In this document: positions 1,839 through 43,492 of the stretch, piece by piece
Layout: every line of letters begins with the position of its first letter
How positions within the stretch are numbered: position 1 is the stretch's first letter
DNA from: a virus
Lineage: Duplodnaviria > Caudoviricetes
Strand: one strand, 5' to 3'
Virus record (IMG/VR): IMGVR_UViG_3300033487_000326
Span: 1 to 43,492 of that record
DNA length: 43,492 nucleotides
The notes under the pieces: model-generated
Databases searched by the model: none
Told to the model about the DNA's origin: nothing
Seen by the model: only the letters and a program-made list of their open reading frames with translations
Translations under genes and position numbers: made by a program

Positions 1839-3135
1839 TATTTCCCCCTTTAGGAACATCTAAAAGCGTATAATCGTGAAACATCCACGTCATAGCCTTG
1901 TCATGCATTTCCATTGAAGTATTTCTTATAAAATCCAAAGCATCAAGCGATAACTTCACATATTTGGCCCTAAGAGAGAGGTCCTTTTCTTTAAAGGCTT
2001 TCTGTCTATAGGCTTGAGCAATGGCCATAATAGTTTCTGGACTATTTGGCTTTTTCTTTAATGCCAACTGAAGATATTTAATGGCTTCATCGTTTTTTTC
2101 ATATCTAGACATAATGTCACCGGCAAACATAAGGGCATCTGCAGAATTCGGACAAGCTTCAACCATAGACTTTATAAAAGTGTCTAGCTCGGCTCTGTTA
2201 TTATGAAAATGGTTTCTATTAATTTCATAGTGATGAATCCATGCAGAGACGCAGTTTCGATATAGTTCGATTGCCTTTTTAGACTCATGTTGTTGTAAGT
2301 GGATCCAGACATCCTTTGCTTTGCGCATAAACTCGACGCCATCGGCAACGCTCCATTGTGGTTTTGCCATGCTTGAGTCACCCTTTTTAAGAATATAGGT
2401 GTTTCCGTAGACCTCATCGTTTTTATAAACAACCTCTAATCCGGCTCTATGAATGATCCACTCGAGATGCTTTTCGCTCCACGCATTGATATGATCTGGA
2501 TGCCAATAATATTCTAAATCAAAACTATTAACTCCGTCGCAATGCATTGCTTTAAACCACACGGGAGCAGATAAATAAAACACACCGTCATCTTTTAAAC
2601 AGTCGGCATATTTTTTAAGCATTATGTCTGGATCGAGTTGGTGCTCAAGAACGTGATAAGAAGCAATAAGATCATACTTTTTAGTAAAATCAAAATCTTC
2701 CTCTAGTCGAATACCATACTCAAAAAAAGCAACTTTTATATAAGTACTTGTTAATTCTGTTCCGTTAATATCAGCTTGTGGAAATTTTTGTTTACAGAAG
2801 TTTAAAAACATCCCAATAGCCGACCCGACTTCACCAATAACCGGACGATCAATTCCTTGTTCTTTCCATCCATTAAACAATGGAGTTAAGAAAAAATCAT
2901 GATACTGAACTTTTCTCTCTCCTGTTTTTACAGACTTCGCGTCCGGAACGGACCTGTAGTTTTTTCGGTAGTACTCTTTTATTTCTTCTTCTGTTTTATA
3001 TTTTTCTGGATAAGAAACAAAGGAGCATGTCTGGCACATGTGTGTTCCTTCTGGTTTGATTCTATATTGATCAACATTTTTCCAGTTACCTACTGTTTCG
3101 CATACTGGGCATCTGAAGCTTTTAACTTTACTCAT
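1798..3135 (-). CDS. Class I SAM-dependent methyltransferase with N-terminal Zn site and C-terminal TPR-like repeats
   Basis: CPVC...CQTC, EVGSAIG motif I, YDLIASYHVLEH, LKDDGVFYLSAP, HPDHI (sugar-methyltransferase-like). Helical TPR-like C-terminus (ALMFAGDIM...AIKYLQLALKKKPNS). Confidence 0.8.
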   Translation of the reverse strand: MSKVKSFRCPVCETVGNWKNVDQYRIKPEGTHMCQTCSFVSYPEKYKTEEEIKEYYRKNYRSVPDAKSVKTGERKVQYHDFFLTPLFNGWKEQGIDRPVIGEVGSAIGMFLNFCKQKFPQADINGTELTSTYIKVAFFEYGIRLEEDFDFTKKYDLIASYHVLEHQLDPDIMLKKYADCLKDDGVFYLSAPVWFKAMHCDGVNSFDLEYYWHPDHINAWSEKHLEWIIHRAGLEVVYKNDEVYGNTYILKKGDSSMAKPQWSVADGVEFMRKAKDVWIHLQQHESKKAIELYRNCVSAWIHHYEINRNHFHNNRAELDTFIKSMVEACPNSADALMFAGDIMSRYEKNDEAIKYLQLALKKKPNSPETIMAIAQAYRQKAFKEKDLSLRAKYVKLSLDALDFIRNTSMEMHDKAMTWMFHDYTLLDVPKGGNNEKTNVSDAPVLN

Positions 3136-3947
3136 ATAATTCCCCTTATTTTATTTGTCTTATCTATAATTGATTTTAAAGTTTCAGGTGTCACGGCTTG
3201 ATCAGCGTCGCTCATGGATTTTTCTGGCTCTTCATGGCATTCGACAAGGAGACCATCTGCTCCGACGGCAACACCTGATAGCGCAATGCTCTCCACCAGA
3301 TCACGACGACCAGTCGAATGAGACGCGTCCCATATGACAGGAACTCTGCAAATTGAATTAATAGAAGCCACAACATGAGGAGTGGGAGTCCAACGAACGT
3401 CATTGTGATAAGTAGAAGAACCTCGCTCAATAATTGAAACATCTTTTACTCCTCCGGTTAGTAAATGCTCCACTGATCCAAGACACTCGTCAACCGTAGA
3501 GCCAGGATGTCTCTTTAAAAAAACAGGCTTTCCCCACTTTCCAAGTGTTCTTAATAGAGGGTAATGCTGCATCGCACGCGCCCCTACCTGAAATACGTCA
3601 CAATATTTAGCTAAAATTTCTAGCTGATCTGGCTGATATGAAATGACCTCAATAATGTTTTTTAAACCATTAGCCTTTGCAGCTTCGCTATATGACTTAA
3701 TTAGATGTTCATCTACATACCCATATTTAATAGTTCTGTTTGGATAAGTACCCGCACGATATACGCCACCACGTAGATAATTTGCTCCTGCTTCTTTAAC
3801 AATTTTAGCAATTCGATTTACTTGGTATTCAGACTCTACAGAACAGCTTCCACTAATTATTTTGAATTCATCATTAGGCGGTACATATGCTTTGACGTAA
3901 TCGTATGAAGGATTCGGACCCCAAATTCTTTTGTTTGAAAAGTCCAT
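3132..3947 (-). CDS. DAHP synthase I-beta / KDO8P synthase family enzyme (PEP-aldose aldolase) with atypical substrate loop
   Basis: GSCSVES, LRGG, QVGARAMQ, KPVFLKR, IERG, DASHSTG, GADGLLVECH, SDADQ. Confidence 0.88.
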   Translation of the reverse strand: MDFSNKRIWGPNPSYDYVKAYVPPNDEFKIISGSCSVESEYQVNRIAKIVKEAGANYLRGGVYRAGTYPNRTIKYGYVDEHLIKSYSEAAKANGLKNIIEVISYQPDQLEILAKYCDVFQVGARAMQHYPLLRTLGKWGKPVFLKRHPGSTVDECLGSVEHLLTGGVKDVSIIERGSSTYHNDVRWTPTPHVVASINSICRVPVIWDASHSTGRRDLVESIALSGVAVGADGLLVECHEEPEKSMSDADQAVTPETLKSIIDKTNKIRGII

Positions 3948-4342
3948 TAGAAATTACTCTTCCTAAGAAACATCTCAAATTCCCTATCCCTAAGTTGTTT
4001 CGCTTTTTTAGCATCCATCATATAGTCCATGCGTTTTCCTTTTGCATATTTAGGAATCACAATATCCCCTGGCATTGGATACTTTTGCCTAAGTATCCAT
4101 CTCATGCATCTTTCGAGATTTCTAATTCGTTTAATTACCCACAAATCTAATTTCTCAGAACCAAGTCCTTTTGAATTTATATCTGCAAGTCCGGCCTGAA
4201 GGCCATACCTCCATGCAGATAATTTCTCAACGCTACCTTTTGTGGCAGCCGTCTCGAGACAAGAGCGCCAGTGATCCTCAGTAAGTGTTGAATACATGGC
4301 TAAAACATCAAGAGCTGCGTACTTGCGTTTCCCCTGATTCAC
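3947..4342 (-). CDS. Hypothetical protein
   Basis: Coupled ORF within the operon; GTG 4342 is preceded by a GGGGG SD (the track starts it at 4354). Confidence 0.6.
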   Translation of the reverse strand: MNQGKRKYAALDVLAMYSTLTEDHWRSCLETAATKGSVEKLSAWRYGLQAGLADINSKGLGSEKLDLWVIKRIRNLERCMRWILRQKYPMPGDIVIPKYAKGKRMDYMMDAKKAKQLRDREFEMFLRKSNF

Positions 4343-5648
4343 TTGTTCCCCCAAGTATTTTGTTTTTTATTTTCTCTCGTTCTTTAATATTAGTTTTAGA
4401 CATTGAACTAGGAGTTTGTCGATAAACAAAAGTTGGTTTATTAAGATACCCAATCCTTACCTGTTCCTTGGCTCTTACCCATAAATCCAGACCTTCATAA
4501 TTTCTAAGTTTATCGGTGAACTTAATATGGTTTAGAGCGGAAGTTCTATATATAGTTCCGCCAGCATGATGATTTTCTTTTCCAAGCTGAATATTTTTTC
4601 GACCAACGCCGGCATAACAATTTGGATATACTGCGTCTAGAGATCTGGAATCAATCTCGTTAACTAAGTCAGAGACAGCAGTTTTGTTGGTAAAATAATC
4701 ATCAGCATCAAGACGAATTATATACTCTCCCTTTGCAAGGTTTAGCGCCCTATTAGAGCTTGATGAAAGGCCAACGTTAGATATGTTTTTATAATACTTT
4801 GTGTTTTTATAAGTCTGACAAAATTTTGACGCATGAAGTATTGTCTTATCTTGAGAGGCGTCATCAATAATCAAATACTCATAATTTTTAAAATTCTCCT
4901 GCATAGCAACAGATCCCATGGCTTCTTCAATCCATTTTTCTGCGTTATATGCGCATGTGTAGATCGTCACGTCGGGGAGTTTGTTTATGTTTTTAATCCA
5001 AGGATGCTCTTCGTAAAATGAGAATACATCGTCTATGGAACAATCAGGCCCAAGACTTGTAAACAACAAATCCATCATTTGAACATCTTCTGGATAGTCC
5101 ACCAAAAGCCTTAAGTCACAATCAAGCATCATCTCATAATTTAATTTATTTTCTGTTGTTGCCTTAATTGCATAGGATATGTGCTCAATGTTTTTACCAC
5201 CATATCTTTGAGCGGCCTTTTCTATGACATCAAAAGACATTATCTCAAATCCAGTCCCTGGAATAAAATCACTGGAATAAAGATAATCGAGACTCTTTCT
5301 TTTAAAGACGTCTAATAGAGAATTTAAAAGTACGTCAGAGACGAATATTTTATCGTGAGTAACTCTGATAATCGTGTCTATGTTGTTTTGCTTCGCGCAC
5401 GCGTGAATTCTACCAAGAGGATTGCTGTCGAATCCTGTAGATATGAAAACCTTGTTAGGATACTTCTCCATAAGAAACATGTAGTCGTTAACTTCTGGTG
5501 CAGGAACAGCCAAATATAGAGGTATATCGCTTTTTATAAGTCTCCTTACTAAGTGCTCTATGTGATAAATTTCTTGATACTTAATAAAGCATTTTCCAGG
5601 CACACGAGAAGAGTGTTTTCTTGAACAAAGAATTATAGCAGTACTCAT
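4308..5648 (-). CDS. Cytidylyltransferase (SpsF/NeuA/KdsB-like) fused to GT2 glycosyltransferase
   Basis: N-terminal CSRKHSSRVPGK, IIRVTHD, RLLVDYPED. C-terminal VTIYTCAYNAEKWI, IIDDAS, RLDADD. ATG 5648 overlaps the upstream stop (ATGA). Confidence 0.85.
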   Translation of the reverse strand: MSTAIILCSRKHSSRVPGKCFIKYQEIYHIEHLVRRLIKSDIPLYLAVPAPEVNDYMFLMEKYPNKVFISTGFDSNPLGRIHACAKQNNIDTIIRVTHDKIFVSDVLLNSLLDVFKRKSLDYLYSSDFIPGTGFEIMSFDVIEKAAQRYGGKNIEHISYAIKATTENKLNYEMMLDCDLRLLVDYPEDVQMMDLLFTSLGPDCSIDDVFSFYEEHPWIKNINKLPDVTIYTCAYNAEKWIEEAMGSVAMQENFKNYEYLIIDDASQDKTILHASKFCQTYKNTKYYKNISNVGLSSSSNRALNLAKGEYIIRLDADDYFTNKTAVSDLVNEIDSRSLDAVYPNCYAGVGRKNIQLGKENHHAGGTIYRTSALNHIKFTDKLRNYEGLDLWVRAKEQVRIGYLNKPTFVYRQTPSSMSKTNIKEREKIKNKILGGTSESGETQVRSS

Positions 5649-6595
5649 GAATCCCAAACTTTCTTAAAATTTTTATATGATTCAAAACTAGAACAGTTTC
5701 GACACGGATCTAAATTAAATGCGGACTTATCTTTTAAAGATTTTCTTATAGACTTGGCTTTTTCTGAATTCCAGATTTCTCTCAAACCCTGTTTATTACA
5801 ATCCCCTATTACAAGACGTGACCCAATGTCAGGACAGCAAACGTGGACTTTGCCGTCCCAATCGACCATAAGTCTTGCGTGGGCTTGGACGCATGTTTGT
5901 CTATTTTTTGCATCTCGCTTTTCAACAACAGTTTCTGATAGGTCTTTATTTGTTCTTCCTTCAACGACATCTCTGACTGAGACAACTGCCGAAGGGAATC
6001 TAGATTTAATTTCATGTTCTAAATCCTCATCTTTATTTAGTTGAGTTCGAACGGACTGAACGACAAATACATTATCGCGACCAGGGTAATTATAATACTT
6101 AGACATGTTTGCAAGTGTCTTTTCATAGTTAGAACCTTTTCTTTGTTTCTCAAAAATATCCTTACGAAAAGAATCAAAACTTACTTTGACTTTTGTTTGG
6201 TTGCAGAGCCCTCGAAAGATAGATTCTTTTTCGTAAGGAAAATTAAAATTAGAATTAGTAACTCGATCAATGAATGTAGATCCATGTGCTTCTTTTTTGG
6301 AAATACTGGTTATGTATTCAAATTCAGGATGCATCGTGGATTCCCCACGGTAGTTAAACTTAACAGAATGAACCCCTAAATCAGCGGCTTCGAATATAAT
6401 CTTTTGCGCTAGCAGTGTTTTCATGTACCCCTTTTTAAAAGGGAGTGTTGATCTGTCTGAGTGGTAACAATAGCCACAAGCATTAGTACAATACGAAGAG
6501 AGCTCGAGTGAAACATCTACTGGTTTAGAGAGATTTAAATATGGCGCGTAGTTATATTTAAAACGATATATCTGATAATTTAATTTTTGAAACAT
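5645..6595 (-). CDS. Radical SAM enzyme with SPASM/twitch domain
   Basis: CTNACGYC (CxxxCxxC), NYRGES; C-terminal CVQ...DGKVHVCC...IGD...EIWNS...CRNC. Confidence 0.9.
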   Translation of the reverse strand: MFQKLNYQIYRFKYNYAPYLNLSKPVDVSLELSSYCTNACGYCYHSDRSTLPFKKGYMKTLLAQKIIFEAADLGVHSVKFNYRGESTMHPEFEYITSISKKEAHGSTFIDRVTNSNFNFPYEKESIFRGLCNQTKVKVSFDSFRKDIFEKQRKGSNYEKTLANMSKYYNYPGRDNVFVVQSVRTQLNKDEDLEHEIKSRFPSAVVSVRDVVEGRTNKDLSETVVEKRDAKNRQTCVQAHARLMVDWDGKVHVCCPDIGSRLVIGDCNKQGLREIWNSEKAKSIRKSLKDKSAFNLDPCRNCSSFESYKNFKKVWDS

Positions 6596-29059: not shown

Positions 29060-29439
29060 TTCTTTTCAATCTCCGCCATGATTGCATCGTGAAGCTTATA
29101 AACACCGACCTTTAGATCAGCATCTACTTTATCAGCAACTTTTCCTATAGATCTGGCAAGCATTGGTTCAATCCAAGAGAAATCGCCTTTTTCAATAGCC
29201 TTAGTCATGCATTTGATTACTAAAAGATCAATGGCTGGTTTTCCTGTCTGAGTATACTCAGCCTTAAGTTCATCCAGTGACATGTTTATGTATTTGTAAA
29301 TTGAAAGTTCTAATTCTGATTGTCTATGTTGACGTAGTTCTTTTAATTCTGGAGGCAAAGCACGACTGGACTTCTTTCCAGCCAGTGATGCTTCCTTGCT
29401 TCCTTTCTTGAATTTTCTAACAGGATTAGGGTTAGCCAC
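29056..29439 (-). CDS. Probable terminase small subunit
   Basis: Basic N-terminus (FKKGS...AGKKS), AIEKGD...RSIGK helix pattern, upstream of terL. Confidence 0.6.
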   Translation of the reverse strand: MANPNPVRKFKKGSKEASLAGKKSSRALPPELKELRQHRQSELELSIYKYINMSLDELKAEYTQTGKPAIDLLVIKCMTKAIEKGDFSWIEPMLARSIGKVADKVDADLKVGVYKLHDAIMAEIEKK

Positions 29440-30184
29440 TTTGCGTTATCTTTTCGTTAGTTAAAGTGTTACTTGAAGTATTTTGGAGCGCATCGGTCGG
29501 ACTTTCACCGCCCCCTTCAGTCTGGTAGACTGACGTGCCAGATTCAACACTAGATGCGCGTTTAGGATATGGTTTTCTTAATGGTTCGATCTGTTTTCTG
29601 ATCTCTTTTGTTAGCGGCATTAAATATCTATGCTTGAGTGTTGGCTTTCTTGTTTTTATGCCTGGGTTTTTTTCTATAAATTTCTTTCCTTGTACTCCAT
29701 ATGTTGAGCCAACCGATTTTGGATGGGTCCATTTTCCGTTTATAAGATATTCCAAAGATCCTCCAGGAACTTGAGTTCCTGAGTATATCCAGTTTGTTGC
29801 CTGATATATGCCGCCGTGGTGATTTTGTCTCGGATCTGCAAAAGATATAATCAACTTAAGACCAGGGTTTGATTTTTTTAAAAATGACATTGAAACACTT
29901 AGTATTCTTGAAACTGGTGTATCGTGATTATTAAGAGCTATCCTGGTTAGCTCACATCCTTCATATTGGGTTAGTTTGTATGGTTTTAGGAGGTTTGGAG
30001 AAGCCCCACGAGAAAAGAGGACAACTCCTATAAACTTATCATTTTCCCATACTCCTAGCTTAACTATTTTCCCAACAGGAACGCATTTCGAGTAATGCCA
30101 ATTCTCACAAGCGTATTTAGCTGCTGCATGAGTAGCCCAATCAATTTTTAATTTTGGCTTGGGATTTTTCGAACTCTGTTCCAC
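29432..30184 (-). CDS. mom: Mom-like adenine-modification enzyme (GNAT fold)
   Basis: ENWHYS, FIGVVLF, ELTRIAL, LIISFADPRQNHHGGIYQATNWIYSG, KHRY; GTG start. Confidence 0.82.
   Translation of the reverse strand: MEQSSKNPKPKLKIDWATHAAAKYACENWHYSKCVPVGKIVKLGVWENDKFIGVVLFSRGASPNLLKPYKLTQYEGCELTRIALNNHDTPVSRILSVSMSFLKKSNPGLKLIISFADPRQNHHGGIYQATNWIYSGTQVPGGSLEYLINGKWTHPKSVGSTYGVQGKKFIEKNPGIKTRKPTLKHRYLMPLTKEIRKQIEPLRKPYPKRASSVESGTSVYQTEGGGESPTDALQNTSSNTLTNEKITQSG
29484..29559 (-). tRNA. tRNA-Gly-like element (anticodon ACC, encoded CCA) embedded in the mom-like CDS
   Basis: 76 nt: GCGCATC TA GTGT-TGAATCTG-GCAC G TCAGT-CTACCAG-ACTGA AGGG GGCGG-TGAAAGT-CCGACC GATGCGC T CCA. Confidence 0.8.
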
Positions 30185-30656
30185 AGCTTGGACACTCCAT
30201 ATAGACTAATTGTTTCTGATCTAGTTTTCCCTGTTCGTCCTCTGATCCAGGTTCAAAGTTTAAATTAAAGTCTTTTAATCCTAGCCAGTCCAAATCAAAA
30301 CTAGATCCGTCTAATTCTTCAAGATCAAAGTTAATTCCGGATAGATCTAACTCTGCCCAATTTGCAATAGCGTTATCGCTTTGTAGGAATGCATACTCTT
30401 GGTCTTGGTCCTTAAACTCTTGATAAACGACTGGGACAGTCTCAGCCTTTAACTCTTGTAAGGCTAGTAAGGTGCCATGACCTTTAACTATATTTCCTGA
30501 CAATTTACTAACTACTATTGGAGCTCTGACCCCTTGATAGTCGATTAATTTAGCCAAACGTTTAATTTGATCCGTTGGGTGTTTGTTTCTATTTTTAGGG
30601 TGTGGTTTTAGAGATTTTGGAGATACTAATTCGTCGTATTTACATTGAATGTTCAT
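30141..30656 (-). CDS. ParB/Srx N-terminal-like domain protein
   Basis: LKPHPKNRNKH, PIVV...IVKGHG, VPV, SDN; C-terminal CPSCG. Confidence 0.82.
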   Translation of the reverse strand: MNIQCKYDELVSPKSLKPHPKNRNKHPTDQIKRLAKLIDYQGVRAPIVVSKLSGNIVKGHGTLLALQELKAETVPVVYQEFKDQDQEYAFLQSDNAIANWAELDLSGINFDLEELDGSSFDLDWLGLKDFNLNFEPGSEDEQGKLDQKQLVYMECPSCGTEFEKSQAKIKN

Positions 30657-39030: not shown

Positions 39031-39239
39031 CACCCACCCCAAGCCGAAAGGTGAGAGAGCTCTATCATGAAGACAAAGTATGGGTTCCTAAGAAAGAATA
39101 CGGCAACTGTTTAAGTCTTCTGCGTGAGGCTTTGGAGGTAATTGCAGGTCACCATTGTTCACCATTGCCATGTGAACTGTGTAAGATGGAAGTAAAACTC
39201 CGCGCAAGCCTTAACGAGAATAAACTACAATCACCTTAG
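39027..39239 (+). CDS. Hypothetical protein
   Basis: ATGA-coupled; HHC...CELC. Confidence 0.5.
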   Translation: MTPTPSRKVRELYHEDKVWVPKKEYGNCLSLLREALEVIAGHHCSPLPCELCKMEVKLRASLNENKLQSP

Positions 39240-41844
39240 ATCCAATATTCCCACTTGGATCCGTCGCTTTCGCCTCAATTCTAAATGTCCCACTGCGTCT
39301 ATTCGGAACTGTCCATGTACACTTATAAGGTGACACAGTCGCAGTACACTTAAGTGATCCATCGACATAAAATGAAACCTTAGTTATAACCCCACTATTG
39401 TCAGTAGCCGTAGCCGACAGAACAACTCTAGATCGTCTTAAAACAGTTGATCCATTGGCAGGGGATACGAAGGTCACAACTGGAAGGATCGTATCTTGTG
39501 GAGGCGGCGGTGGGTCTACAACGACAGATCCAGCCAAAGCGCAGACAACCGAAGACGCACCAGACACAAGACCCATCGAGTCAACGGAACTCACAGAATA
39601 ACAATATTGATTTCCAGCCAAGGTTCCTTCTGTATTAAGAAGCGACAATGAACTAGTCGATGCATAGGGAAGTCCTGATTTGTTAACGATATAACTTAAG
39701 ATAGTTCGACCACCTGAAGCTACAGAGTCTTTCCATTTAATTTGGATTCCCCCTGTCACGGCAGACGCGGTAACTTCCGTTGGAGGAGATGGTTTTGTTA
39801 TTGCGACATTTATTGTCCGTATAGCAGAATTAGTCGATTGACCTATTCCATTATACGCTCTTGCGATGATTGAATGTTTCCCATCCCCCAAAGACTCTAC
39901 TGGTAATGTTAGAGAATAAGGATAACGAGAGACTCGACCAACAACCACCCCATCACTTAAATAATCAATTGATGCGATTCCGTAATAGTTATTCCATGCG
40001 CTAACGGTTAAATTAACCTTCTCGCCTGAAAAATGAATCTCCTTATCAAGAGGCGTCAACAAACTGACGGTGGGTAAAGAATAGGGAAGATAATTTCCAG
40101 ATGAATCCTTCACGCAACTAGGAGGGCCTGTGACGCCAGACTCAACTGCTGGCGTTGAGTTAGATCCTTCTTTTCCTATAACTTTATATTTGTGGAGAGT
40201 AAATAATCCAGGCTGTGTACTAAACTGATCAACCTCTGTCATTCGAGTATCACTACCCACAAGAACGTTAGTGATCTTAACTTCTCCGATCACGTTTCCT
40301 GACCAATCAACTGGGTAACTATAAACATCATAGCTTGTAACTGATTTATTTGTATTGTCCCAACTTAGGGACATGGCAGTACAAATGCCTCCAACCACAG
40401 ATAGATTCTGAGCAGGAGTTGGATCAAATTGGGGAACAGCAGTCTTCAAAATGGTTACTAAATGTGTATTGTGCTCACCAATAATAACACCAGTAGACAC
40501 GAAATTCTTTTCGTCATTGATCATTTGACCTGTGACAGGATCGCGAACAGGTCCACAAGTTTTATAAACTCCGTCAACAATCGCCGTATGACAGACAGGA
40601 GGCAAAAACTTTAGTACGACCGTTCTATCTTCCTTAAGGTAAGGATTAGATTTAACTGTGAAAGTAATTTTTCCTGATAACTGTCCAGCTAGAATTTTAA
40701 CCATACCACTATTAGGTATACTCACATGGTCTGGGTATTTGGCCGTCCCAGAAACATCAACTGGAATATACAAATCTTTCGTCGACGCTCGATCAAGATT
40801 CACAGTTGCTGTAACAGTCCCAACATCTTGGGAAACGGTCTGTGATTCTACAGAGAAGTTTGCAACTGGGAGCTTAAAAGTAACCCCACTCGCCGTAGAG
40901 GGAACAGTAAACACAGTGTTATTTGAGACATAACTGTCTGAACCATCGTTACTTAACTCAAGGGCCGGCTTTCCTTTATATGTAGCGACTCTAACACCAT
41001 AAAATCCAGGTAGCATAAGCTTGCTTGAGTTCCATGAGGTTAAAGGAATCCAGGTATCACTTCCTTCGGTTTGAACTTCAATGTCCCACATGTAGCCACG
41101 TTTAAATCCAGGGAACTCAAAAAACTCTGTTACAAATTCGTTAAGGCTATCAGGGTAAACATATTTCCCAAACATTTCAGGAACTAGATAATCAATTATA
41201 TAATCCTTAGCATCGATGTTTAATTTCAAATGCCATTCTCTATACTGAACGGCTTGACCATTATTCACCAAAGGAAGTGTTGGAACATTAGGACAATCTC
41301 TTCCCCAGTTTTTAAAATCCCCCTGAACAATATCGCCACGAGAAAGTTCGATAGCGACATCTTTGCCGTCAACATCCATTTGAAATGGAGCGCTGAATTT
41401 AAGTTCAAAAGGATTCATGTCTGCATAATGAGCAACGCGTGGAAACATATTTGTATCATGAGGCCTTAAACCAAACGGCCCTGCACCTAAAACGCTATTT
41501 GGATTATTAAAATCCTGCATTGAAATCTCAAGACCTGTACCCCATGGCGCCCTAGTAACACCAGAAGAGACAGATCCAAGAGGCAAAGCCGTGTCACATG
41601 ATCTGTCATTAAGCAGCGTAGGAGTTTGATTAAAGTTGGCTTCAAACTGAATGGCATGAACCGTCGTGTCGGCTGGGTTATAAACTCGACTTACATCAAA
41701 GATAATTCCACCGTTAATAACTGCGTCTTTTCGAATCTTGTGCCTTACCTTTACGACCTTTTGGATTCTTTGAGTATGATCAAGACCAATAACTCCTGCA
41801 TAAGAAAAGACAGGAAACAGCAGTACCAATAAAACCCTTACCAT
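39211..41844 (-). CDS. Secreted/surface protein with Calx-beta-, FN3- and Ig-like domains
   Basis: Signal peptide MVRVLLVLLFPVFSYA. PVANFSVESQTV...VTATVNL (Calx-beta-like); PSPPTEVTA...IQIKW...YCYSVSSVD (FN3); PVVTFVSPANG...VSFYVDG (Ig-like). Confidence 0.8.
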   Translation of the reverse strand: MVRVLLVLLFPVFSYAGVIGLDHTQRIQKVVKVRHKIRKDAVINGGIIFDVSRVYNPADTTVHAIQFEANFNQTPTLLNDRSCDTALPLGSVSSGVTRAPWGTGLEISMQDFNNPNSVLGAGPFGLRPHDTNMFPRVAHYADMNPFELKFSAPFQMDVDGKDVAIELSRGDIVQGDFKNWGRDCPNVPTLPLVNNGQAVQYREWHLKLNIDAKDYIIDYLVPEMFGKYVYPDSLNEFVTEFFEFPGFKRGYMWDIEVQTEGSDTWIPLTSWNSSKLMLPGFYGVRVATYKGKPALELSNDGSDSYVSNNTVFTVPSTASGVTFKLPVANFSVESQTVSQDVGTVTATVNLDRASTKDLYIPVDVSGTAKYPDHVSIPNSGMVKILAGQLSGKITFTVKSNPYLKEDRTVVLKFLPPVCHTAIVDGVYKTCGPVRDPVTGQMINDEKNFVSTGVIIGEHNTHLVTILKTAVPQFDPTPAQNLSVVGGICTAMSLSWDNTNKSVTSYDVYSYPVDWSGNVIGEVKITNVLVGSDTRMTEVDQFSTQPGLFTLHKYKVIGKEGSNSTPAVESGVTGPPSCVKDSSGNYLPYSLPTVSLLTPLDKEIHFSGEKVNLTVSAWNNYYGIASIDYLSDGVVVGRVSRYPYSLTLPVESLGDGKHSIIARAYNGIGQSTNSAIRTINVAITKPSPPTEVTASAVTGGIQIKWKDSVASGGRTILSYIVNKSGLPYASTSSLSLLNTEGTLAGNQYCYSVSSVDSMGLVSGASSVVCALAGSVVVDPPPPPQDTILPVVTFVSPANGSTVLRRSRVVLSATATDNSGVITKVSFYVDGSLKCTATVSPYKCTWTVPNRRSGTFRIEAKATDPSGNIGSKVIVVYSR

Positions 41845-41957: not shown

Positions 41958-42596
41958 ATGAAGAAATACTATTTTGCCAAAGGAAGTCCTTTTGATCCAA
42001 AAGACGCTCAGAAGGTTGGTGAGTATTTAGAAAGATATTTTCCTAATTCTAACTTTAAACCAGAACAGATCGTCGAGATTGCTAGACCTCCGACATCCCC
42101 AATTCACAAATACTTTGATTGGGATGATGAGACTGCAGCTAAAAAATATAGACTACAACAAGCAAGAAGAATTGTTAATGCTCTTTATATAAGCATAGAA
42201 AATGTTGAAACAAGAGCATTCGAATCTGTTTACCTAAAAGCAATCGATGAAACATCATACATGAATTCAGAAACTATTTTTAATAGTAAAGATTTGTGGC
42301 TTCAGGTGGTTGACGCCGCAAAGAGAGAACTTTTGTACTGGGAAGCAAAATACTCTCTTTATAAACAACAACTTCCCGAAATATTCCAGGCGATTGAACG
42401 CCTGAAAGAAAGAGAGAAAAAGCATGAAAAAGAAAGCGTCGGTAGAAACCGAAGAACAAATAGTTATTCCGCCAATCGAAACAAAGGTGGCGCAAATTAC
42501 ATTAAAAGGGATAACACCGCTTCTGGTAAACAAATTCGACGAAAAGTCGAAGACAGAAATGCTAGAAAAACAAATGAAAGGCGCAAAGAAGGCTAA
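41958..42596 (+). CDS. Conserved hypothetical protein, partner of the RAMP-like gene
   Basis: ATG 41958 with SD AAGGGG; SPIHKYFDWDDETAAKKYRLQQARRIV; 3' end overlaps the next gene by 173 nt. Confidence 0.7.
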   Translation: MKKYYFAKGSPFDPKDAQKVGEYLERYFPNSNFKPEQIVEIARPPTSPIHKYFDWDDETAAKKYRLQQARRIVNALYISIENVETRAFESVYLKAIDETSYMNSETIFNSKDLWLQVVDAAKRELLYWEAKYSLYKQQLPEIFQAIERLKEREKKHEKESVGRNRRTNSYSANRNKGGANYIKRDNTASGKQIRRKVEDRNARKTNERRKEG

Positions 42597-43047
42597 GGCC
42601 GCGAGAGACCCTCAAGCTGAATTCGAGGCAAGTCTTTATAGAATGCCAGGAAAGAAAAATGTTTATGGGGTTCCGGTCGGAGGAATAAAGAACTGCGCTG
42701 TTTCAGCATGCAGATTTATTGATGGAATACCAATGACTTTAGCAAAAGGCGCATTTCACGTTTTAGACGAAACAGGGACAGGACTTATACCGATTGAAGG
42801 AAGTGATCCAGTTTTAGATAGTAGGATTTGTCGAATAGGACCATTTGGAAAAAAGACGGCGATTTCAAGATTTAGAGGTCGATTTGATAAGTGGAGTCTT
42901 AGCTTCAAGGTTCGCTACAACAGTCGTGTAATATCCCCAGCACAGTTGTTAAATCTTTTTGAAAACGGAGGATTTAGTGTTGGTTTATGCGAATTTAGGC
43001 CAGAAAAAAGCGGTAGTTTGGGAATGTTTGAAGTAGCTCGAAAATAA
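42424..43047 (+). CDS. RAMP/Cas7-like RNA-binding protein (stand-alone)
   Basis: ITLKGITPLL (beta1), VPVGGIKNCAVSA (PxxxxK helix), RGRFDKWSLSF, C-terminal Gly-rich loop GGFSVGLCEFRPEKSGSLGMFEV. Confidence 0.65.
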   Translation: MKKKASVETEEQIVIPPIETKVAQITLKGITPLLVNKFDEKSKTEMLEKQMKGAKKAKAARDPQAEFEASLYRMPGKKNVYGVPVGGIKNCAVSACRFIDGIPMTLAKGAFHVLDETGTGLIPIEGSDPVLDSRICRIGPFGKKTAISRFRGRFDKWSLSFKVRYNSRVISPAQLLNLFENGGFSVGLCEFRPEKSGSLGMFEVARK

Positions 43048-43050
43048 TAA

Positions 43051-43492
43051 ACAGGAAGCGACCGGCACGGCGCTAAAAGCACCGGCGCTTTATTGGATCG
43101 GATAGGCAGGAGAGGCGAGGAATCGTAAAGAGCGGCGGAGTGTCGCTTGCAGAATAGTGGAGTGGCCGGAAACGCATTGGCCATGCGAGGCCTGGACGAT
43201 ACAGGAACCGATAGGCAGGACAGAAATGTTCTATGCTTGATTGGCTCGGCAGGAATGGCTGAAAAATGGAACCGAATTGCACGAAATTGAGCGGACACGA
43301 TTGGCAGTCGTGGCGATTACAGGCGCAGAGGATAAGGGAGATTAATGGCAGGGCAGGATCGGAACTCAATGGCTCGGAATCGTTGGGAGTAGAAGCGACC
43401 GGCAGCAACGGCGGAGATGGGAACGGCAAGCAAAGTCGTCCAGAGGACTGGCAGGAGAGGCACGGAGAGGACCGGAAGAGCGAAGACAGGAC
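43051..43492 (+). ncRNA. 5-nt-periodic (GG[A/C]NN)n array punctuated by GGCAGG; candidate guide-RNA array (runs off window)
   Basis: GG recurs in 5-nt phase. GGCAGG at 43105, 43214, 43248, 43347/43352 and 43450. Abrupt rise in G content straight after the RAMP-like stop. Confidence 0.7.

What the first reader, a model, noticed from the sequence alone, without database searches (positions are those of the whole stretch)
42424..43492. Stand-alone RAMP/Cas7-like gene plus 5-nt-periodic GG array: candidate non-CRISPR RNA-guided phage system
Seen: a few bases after the stop of a 207-aa ORF the DNA becomes G/purine-rich with a pentamer phase. In 43109-43215, 11 of 22 pentamer positions carry GG and 17 of 22 have G at the second position. 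43454-43490 reads GGaga GGcac GGaga GGacc GGaag AGcga AGaca GG. GGCAGG motifs, each a 4-nt phase step, split the tract into units of 109, 34, ~104 and 98 nt. Established: RAMP/Cas7 proteins have the beta1 'TPL', PxxxxK and C-terminal Gly-loop features seen here, and polymerise along guide RNA with a fixed nucleotide step. Inference: each protomer binds one GG[A/C] anchor, the variable NN bases specify a target, and GGCAGG marks processing sites. No cas1/cas3 or repeat-spacer array is present. I recall phage RAMP + GGY-NN arrays being reported recently as 'VIPR'; I cannot verify that here, and this array would be a GGA/GGC-type variant.
Basis: partly seen in the sequence, partly recalled or inferred. 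Interest (0 to 1): 0.93.

Follow-up and report, generated by a model that had tools for sequence, protein, structure and literature searches.

The report
Phage VIPR system with GGA guides
This 43-kb phage carries a VIPR system, a CRISPR-related device first described in 2026, whose five-base guide repeats read GGA or GGC instead of the published GG-pyrimidine; decoded, its first guide matches the same gene in related phages, so it likely silences rivals' VIPR systems, making it a variant of a known kind.

Summary
Real, and a variant of a published system. ORF 42424-43047 is a Vipr protein: its model has a RAMP fold, and its family profile hits the solved SUSP1 Vipr (E 3.9e-8). It is not stand-alone: a conserved partner gene lies upstream. 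The tract has period 5 (z 5-6). It is a staggered array whose units overlap at GGCA|G and are mostly 10-11 pentamers long. Of 56 GG, 28 are GGA, 24 GGC, 0 GGT. GGA-rich arrays mark one protein clade (18 loci), whereas SUSP1 Vipr is reported to exclude purines there. The published one-base-skip code still holds in silico. Guide 1 matches a relative's vipr gene at 22/22 once one extra T is skipped; its own gene scores 17/22 and other skip rules at most 16. Part of guide 2 spells the integrase catalytic motif (18 of 19 viral matches). Expression and silencing are untested. Staggered arrays and anti-vipr guides are in print. This scan noted a GGA VIPR before on another genome (e1-5330577).

The parts
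41958..42596 (+). vap-like partner gene (212 aa; conserved core about the first 155 aa; its tail overlaps vipr by 173 nt in another frame)
   Evidence: tblastn hits in 91 of 105 vipr loci, own record included; phrog_15946; the overlapping tail also occurs in P0122-P0124; no fold or family assigned
42424..43047 (+). vipr gene, 207-aa RAMP/Cas7-like protein
   Evidence: model pLDDT 87; top matches Csm3/Cmr/Cas7, VIA Z 9.4, rmsd 4.0, 149 aligned; profile hits PDB 36pp SUSP1 Vipr, E 3.9e-8; hhalign 96.6% over residues 129-205
43049..43492 (+). staggered pentamer guide array (GGA/GGC + NN), cut off by the contig end
   Evidence: 3-5 stops in each + frame; no structure beyond shuffles, z 0.4
43054..43109 (+). 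guide 1: 11 pentamers plus one extra T; decodes to the G-loop codons of other vipr genes
   Evidence: 22/22 in L034/L035, 17/22 in own gene; other skip rules at most 16/22; 2000 unit-order shuffles at most 19
43109..43218 (+). guide 2: 22 pentamers, possibly two fused guides; 43169-43213 decodes to the tyrosine-integrase HxLRH motif
   Evidence: 19 exact viral matches, 18 in frame in PF00589 integrases; first half has no target found
43218..43307 (+). guides 3-4: 7+11 pentamers with a junction at 43248 and one extra A, or one 18-pentamer unit
   Evidence: no convincing target
43307..43454 (+). guides 5-7: three 10-pentamer units at exactly 49-nt spacing (junctions 43352, 43401, 43450)
   Evidence: searches gave 0, 1 and 0 exact viral matches
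43454..43492 (+). guide 8, truncated by the contig end

Best explanation
This is a phage VIPR locus (partner gene, vipr, staggered guide array) of a clade whose pentamers read GGA/GGC, and it likely works as published VIPRs do, with Vipr predicted to coat each roughly 50-nt guide and bind rival DNA through the NN bases while skipping every third target base. Shown by sequence: the fold and family, the array layout, the GGA bias, and guide 1's match to other phages' vipr genes in wobble register. Inferred from SUSP1 work: transcription, cutting into guides at the GGCA|G overlaps, one protomer per pentamer, triplex binding and transcriptional silencing. The likely targets are rival VIPR phages (guide 1) and an integrase-bearing element (guide 2). 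A changed G-loop (GLCE[YF]R in place of G[VI]GEWR) may be what admits a purine at position 3.
For: Fold and family. Catalogue: tailed phage, 97% complete, no cas1. Arrays: 67 of 76 non-redundant homologous loci with at least 300 nt downstream hold 25 or more parsed pentamers; by a stricter test, 36 of 76 reach z>=4 against 0 of 76 inside vipr. Positions 4-5 carry 0.02-0.06 bits, positions 1-3 carry 0.65-1.4 bits. Code: guide 1 scores 22/22 under skip 1 and at most 16/22 under skips 0, 2, 3 over 432 kb. The skipped base falls on the third codon position and equals the anchor's third base in only 61 of 198 cases. Of 300 parsed guides, 6 reach 18/20 or more on a vipr gene under skip 1, none under the other skips. 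The integrase pattern gave 19 hits, against 1, 0, 0 for three other 18-base patterns. Clade: position-3 A is 69% of 745 GG anchors in 18 loci against 4% of 2093 in 43 loci; the split is one branch, SH-aLRT 99.
Against: No RNA, binding or silencing data. Guide 1 needs one base skipped: read as assembled it scores 15/22. Only 2 of 102 GGA-clade guides have an 18/20 vipr match. Over all fetched loci, 3 of 101 reach 85% under skip 1 against 2 under skip 0, so the code rests on few guides. The integrase motif was picked by eye, and no integrase matches all of guide 2 (best 30/44). Six of eight guides have no credible target. The tree is the quick search with no reliable root, and it shows one change only, so G-loop/GGA coupling is not shown. 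7 of 95 close homologues keep W191 and 25 keep H36; their arrays were not seen.
Confidence: 0.85

Rival explanations
1. Guide 1 is autoregulatory: it damps the phage's own vipr operon through a partial match rather than attacking rivals.
For: The best self site is in the own vipr gene at 17/22.
Against: 21 of the 22 other clade genes score higher than the own gene (18-22). The own gene has G182 where 90 of 94 homologues have A. L034's first guide shows the same pattern: 21/24 on L031, 18/24 on self. 17/22 is under the 80% used in the April paper.
Confidence: 0.08
2. The array is a decaying VIPR array: GGA and the broken anchors are drift, and the system no longer works.
For: G1 and G2 are only 63% and 71% conserved here. 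There are one or two single-base insertions in homopolymer runs, and most guides have no target found.
Against: A at position 3 is as conserved as each G across 21 clade loci (0.8 bits each). Both genes are intact, and NN positions match a target 22/22.
Confidence: 0.05
3. The tract is a low-complexity or protein-coding repeat unrelated to the RAMP gene.
For: A 75-aa open + frame and a 139-aa open - frame cross it.
Against: The period is 5, not 3. The phase steps are one base, there are stops in all + frames, the tract recurs behind homologues, and decoding gives vipr and integrase codons.
Confidence: 0.01

Closest known systems
VIPR systems with staggered vrRNA arrays and NNNGG repeats (bioRxiv 10.64898/2026.04.26.720920; methods and legend of fig. 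S18)
   Same: Phage-borne vipr plus vap; pentamer array; units overlapping by one base; 1-nt skip code; some guides aimed at other VIPR systems.
   Different: The held text names GGY, NNNGG, YNNNG and NNNNG but no A-dominant third position. Figures S16-S18, tables S2-S3 and data S4 were not seen and may already cover this clade, so no type number could be assigned.
Type II VIPR of Escherichia phage SUSP1 (PDB 36pp; bioRxiv 10.64898/2026.04.26.720927 and 2026.10.15.759431)
   Same: Homologous protein. R138, D177 and R179 correspond to R151, E190 and R192 here. SUSP1 guides hit a recombinase active-site stretch, and solo guides hit vipr genes in wobble register, as here.
   Different: 19% identity. 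The SUSP1 locus shows GGT 37, GGC 4, GGA 2. Its Y3 pocket is said to exclude purines, and GGY>GGA is listed among anchor changes said to abolish silencing (figure not seen). It has a pseudoknot tail per guide. Its vap1 shows no similarity to this partner (hhalign 0.3%).
Non-canonical VIPR clusters in COMPASS (bioRxiv 10.64898/2026.10.21.760802)
   Same: 21 clusters with non-GGY pentamers beside Vipr-like folds.
   Different: Examples given are GAC, CAC, WGT and TGH; 'GGA' occurs 0 times in the main text; fig. S10 not seen.
Class 1 CRISPR Cas7/Csm3 backbones
   Same: RAMP fold.
   Different: No cas1, no repeat-spacer array, and a non-contiguous code.

Membership tests
VIPR | RAMP protein with thumb and G-loop, homologous to Vipr | tested here: met
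VIPR | Minimal locus, vipr plus vap, no cas genes or CRISPR array | tested here: met
   partner in 91 of 105 loci; no cas1; no repeat-spacer array in the tract; cas3 not searched separately, none among 40 ORF scans
VIPR | Tandem pentamer array, GGY/NN or a related consensus such as NNNGG, about 9-16 units | tested here: met
   five units of 10-11 pentamers, plus outliers of 22 and 7 (or 18)
VIPR | Targets read by NN with a one-base skip on the wobble position | tested here: met
   in silico only: guide 1; guide 2
VIPR | vrRNAs expressed, bound by Vipr, silencing DNA targets | not testable with these tools
   no RNA holder listed; nothing laid
VIPR, staggered architecture | Neighbouring guides overlap by one base | tested here: met
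   six firm and one ambiguous -1 phase step at GGCA|G; GGCAG is 117 of 151 parsed junctions in the clade; processing not tested
Type II VIPR (SUSP1-like) | GGY anchors | tested here: not met
   GGA 28, GGC 24, GGG 4, GGT 0 of 56
Type II VIPR (SUSP1-like) | Structured 3' tail after each guide, and vap1 | tested here: not met
   guides abut with no tail between them, though the array end is cut off; no vap1 similarity
VIPR types I, III-VII | Place in the published Vipr tree and vap class | not testable with these tools
   figures and data S4 not held
Class 1 CRISPR-Cas | cas operon with repeat-spacer array | tested here: not met

The most novel reading that the evidence does not exclude
The GGA clade is an orthogonal VIPR subfamily. 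A rebuilt G-loop pocket reads GGA/GGC, so its guides cannot be loaded by GGY-type Vipr and its protein ignores GGT-rich decoy guides, while the same gapped code is turned on its own clade's vipr genes from the first slot of the array. It would give a second, non-cross-reacting programmable silencer.
Probability: 0.3. Interest if true: 0.65.

Novelty: new variant of a known kind. Interest (0 to 1): 0.42.

Why it matters
The solved VIPR structure says position 3 of the anchor cannot be a purine. Here a whole natural clade prefers A there, yet its guides still decode with the same skip rule onto real genes. That separates anchor reading from target reading. It names candidate residues (C189, F/Y191, L188; less surely N36, G86, G87) for a direct swap test and suggests an orthogonal guide-protein pair. 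The targets fit the published picture of phage-against-phage silencing and do not change it.

Tried and rejected
Expression and read check: no RNA holder listed, and none of three runs laid any contig. The extra T and A and the array's continuation therefore stay unchecked; this is no evidence either way. Target hunts that failed: the 20-base integrase pattern gave 0 viral hits and 1 genome hit in a 39-codon frame, taken as chance. The first half of guide 2 gave 15 hits, none extending beyond 20/24. Guides 5 and 7 gave 0 hits. Guide 6 gave one 19/20 in-frame hit in a baseplate-wedge gene (L132), but about one chance hit is expected, so it is inconclusive. Guides 3 and 8 were not scanned in public collections. 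Third-base pairing was rejected (61 of 198), as were readings at other pentamer positions (15-17 of 22). No Rfam match of weight; promoter-like sites at chance level. No integrase in the own contig. The host was not identified. The careful tree did not finish. Literature searches; term searches.

Full report
Observation. After GG the base is A 28, C 24, G 4, T 0 times. GG phase drops by one base at GGCA|G at 43105, 43214, 43248, 43303, 43352, 43401 and 43450 (spacings 109, 34, 55, 49, 49, 49). A parser that knew nothing of targets found six of these, read through 43248, and placed one inserted base in the T run of guide 1. The contig is a tailed phage (terminase, portal, capsid, tape measure), linear and 97% complete by CheckV, with no cas1 or tyrosine integrase found. 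It ends inside the array.

The protein. No Pfam family; phrog_4652; 161 homologues. A model from 95 sequences (pLDDT 87) matches Csm3/Cmr/Cas7 chains: 69 Foldseek hits at E<=0.001 and VIA Z 9.4, rmsd 4.0, 149 aligned. The profile's only PDB sequence hit is SUSP1 Vipr, 36pp (E 3.9e-8), and it finds one gene in the SUSP1 genome. hhalign supports residues 129-205 only (96.6%). So the thumb and G-loop mapping is firm, while the mapping of SUSP1 H17, E71 and M72 to N36, G86 and G87 rests on a 19%-identity global alignment.

The partner. ORF 41958-42596 has relatives in 91 of 105 vipr loci, own record and near-copies included. It lies upstream of vipr in every GGA-clade locus where it was found. In most other loci it lies downstream, behind the array (exceptions L095, L105). 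It has no known fold or family and no similarity to SUSP1 vap1. Its function is open; a role in silencing is inferred from the SUSP1 result that loss of vap1 mimics loss of vipr (10.64898/2026.10.15.759431).

Relatives. I fetched 29 viral and 80 metagenome loci (the best 80 of 187 were kept, and one search pattern was the clade's own G-loop, so sampling favours the clade). 67 of 76 non-redundant loci with at least 300 nt downstream carry 25 or more parsed pentamers. The parser had no false-positive run, so a stricter test matters: 36 of 76 reach z>=4 against 0 of 76 inside the gene. In a quick tree of 82 proteins, the 18 GGA-rich loci fall on one side of a branch (SH-aLRT 99), with 43 GGY loci on the other; 5 mixed and 16 unscored rows were not counted. 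A at position 3 is 69% against 4%. In the clade, degenerate anchors keep the A (CGA, GTA, GCA), and each of the three positions holds about 0.8 bits. The clade differs in the G-loop: L188 18/18, C189 16/18, Y/F191 15/18, against V/I 40/43, G 41/43, W 34/43. This is one event on the tree, so it suggests and does not show that these residues admit the purine. S-G at 86-87 also occurs with GGY arrays (L005, L056).

The code. Applying the published rule (pair NN, skip one target base) to guide 1 gives the codons of LYENAGFAVGL, the G-loop region of vipr. It matches L034/L035 at 22/22 and six more genes at 21/22. Skips of 0, 2 or 3 give at most 16/22, and 2000 shuffles of unit order at most 19. The skipped base is the third codon position. 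The own gene scores 17/22, lower than 21 of the 22 other clade genes, partly through A182G, seen in 2 of 94 homologues. Some of the mismatches are codon choices that a 39% GC genome could make anyway. The match needs one T skipped (15/22 otherwise; units 1-7 give 14/14 and units 8-11 give 8/8). The extra base may be an assembly error, a weakening slip or a tolerated bulge; reads could not tell. L034's first guide behaves likewise (21/24 on L031, 18/24 on self). Overall 6 of 300 parsed guides reach 18/20 on a vipr gene under skip 1 and none under the other skips; only 2 of the 6 are GGA-type.

Nine units of guide 2 decode to the integrase motif TFHDLRHTY. An exact scan found 19 viral matches, 18 in frame in PF00589 integrases and one not (L115). 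About one match is expected: a 16-base pattern gave 15, and three other 18-base patterns gave 1, 0 and 0. The motif was chosen by eye, and no hit extends over the whole guide, so the gene class is likely and the actual target unknown. The other guides have no credible target.

Mechanism. Shown: anatomy, fold, family, anchor bias, in-silico code. Inferred from the SUSP1 papers: the array is transcribed with the operon and cut at the overlaps; one Vipr binds each pentamer; the filament forms an R-loop triplex on DNA and blocks transcription. Silencing a rival's vipr gene and an integrase would suit a phage competing with co-infecting VIPR phages and with a resident prophage or satellite.

What is known. 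10.64898/2026.04.26.720920 (whole held text read; supplement PDF by term search only; figures, tables and data files not seen) defines VIPR, staggered arrays, NNNGG variants and guides against other VIPRs. It says anchor perturbations abolish silencing and lists GGY>GGA among them. 10.64898/2026.04.26.720927 (parts 1-2 of 6) describes a Y3 pocket that excludes purines. 10.64898/2026.10.15.759431 (parts 1-3 of 8 and passages) reports recombinase-targeting guides, solo anti-vipr guides and decoys. 10.64898/2026.10.21.760802 (passages only) reports 21 non-GGY clusters. I found no text describing a GGA-dominant clade (searches; term searches), but unseen figures and supplements may hold it. This scan has noted staggered VIPR loci many times and a GGA one once.

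Verdict. Member of VIPR (about 0.95), not of canonical type II; a new variant of a known kind. Interest 0.42.

Noticed in passing
L030, L034, L022, L083 (first full guide after the vipr stop); L094, L079 (later guides): Of 6 guides reaching 18/20 or more on a vipr gene, 4 are the first full guide of their array, and all 6 score lower on their own gene. The proximal slot may favour anti-VIPR guides.
   Followed up: partly
window 42424-42596: The partner gene runs 173 nt into vipr in another frame. P0122-P0124 show the same tail, and gene callers shorten vipr to 157-162 aa as a result.
   Followed up: partly
Mycobacterium phages Quico, Florinda, Saal and others; Gordonia phages ODay, UmaThurman; Pseudomonas LESphi2: Cultured phages carry 28-33% identical vipr homologues annotated as hypothetical proteins (36 records). 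They are possible lab models; their arrays were not examined.
   Followed up: no
L065, L074: Arrays with G at position 1 in only about a third of pentamers but G2 near 0.9 (YNNNG-like).
   Followed up: no
L101, L103, L023, L024, L097: Mixed arrays with 15-45% GGA outside the clade; possible intermediates or separate gains.
   Followed up: no
L048-L050: The vipr match spans 813 nt instead of about 600, suggesting an insertion of about 200 nt in the gene.
   Followed up: no
window 39211-41844 (-): 877-aa protein with a signal-like N-terminus and Ig-like domains (Big_7), divergent from the vap-vipr operon; a possible host-derived or surface protein.
   Followed up: no
window 3132-6595 and 29432-30656 (-): Glycosyltransferase, aldolase-like and radical-SAM-like genes beside tail genes; a Mom-like DNA-modification gene with a ParB-like partner.
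   Followed up: no
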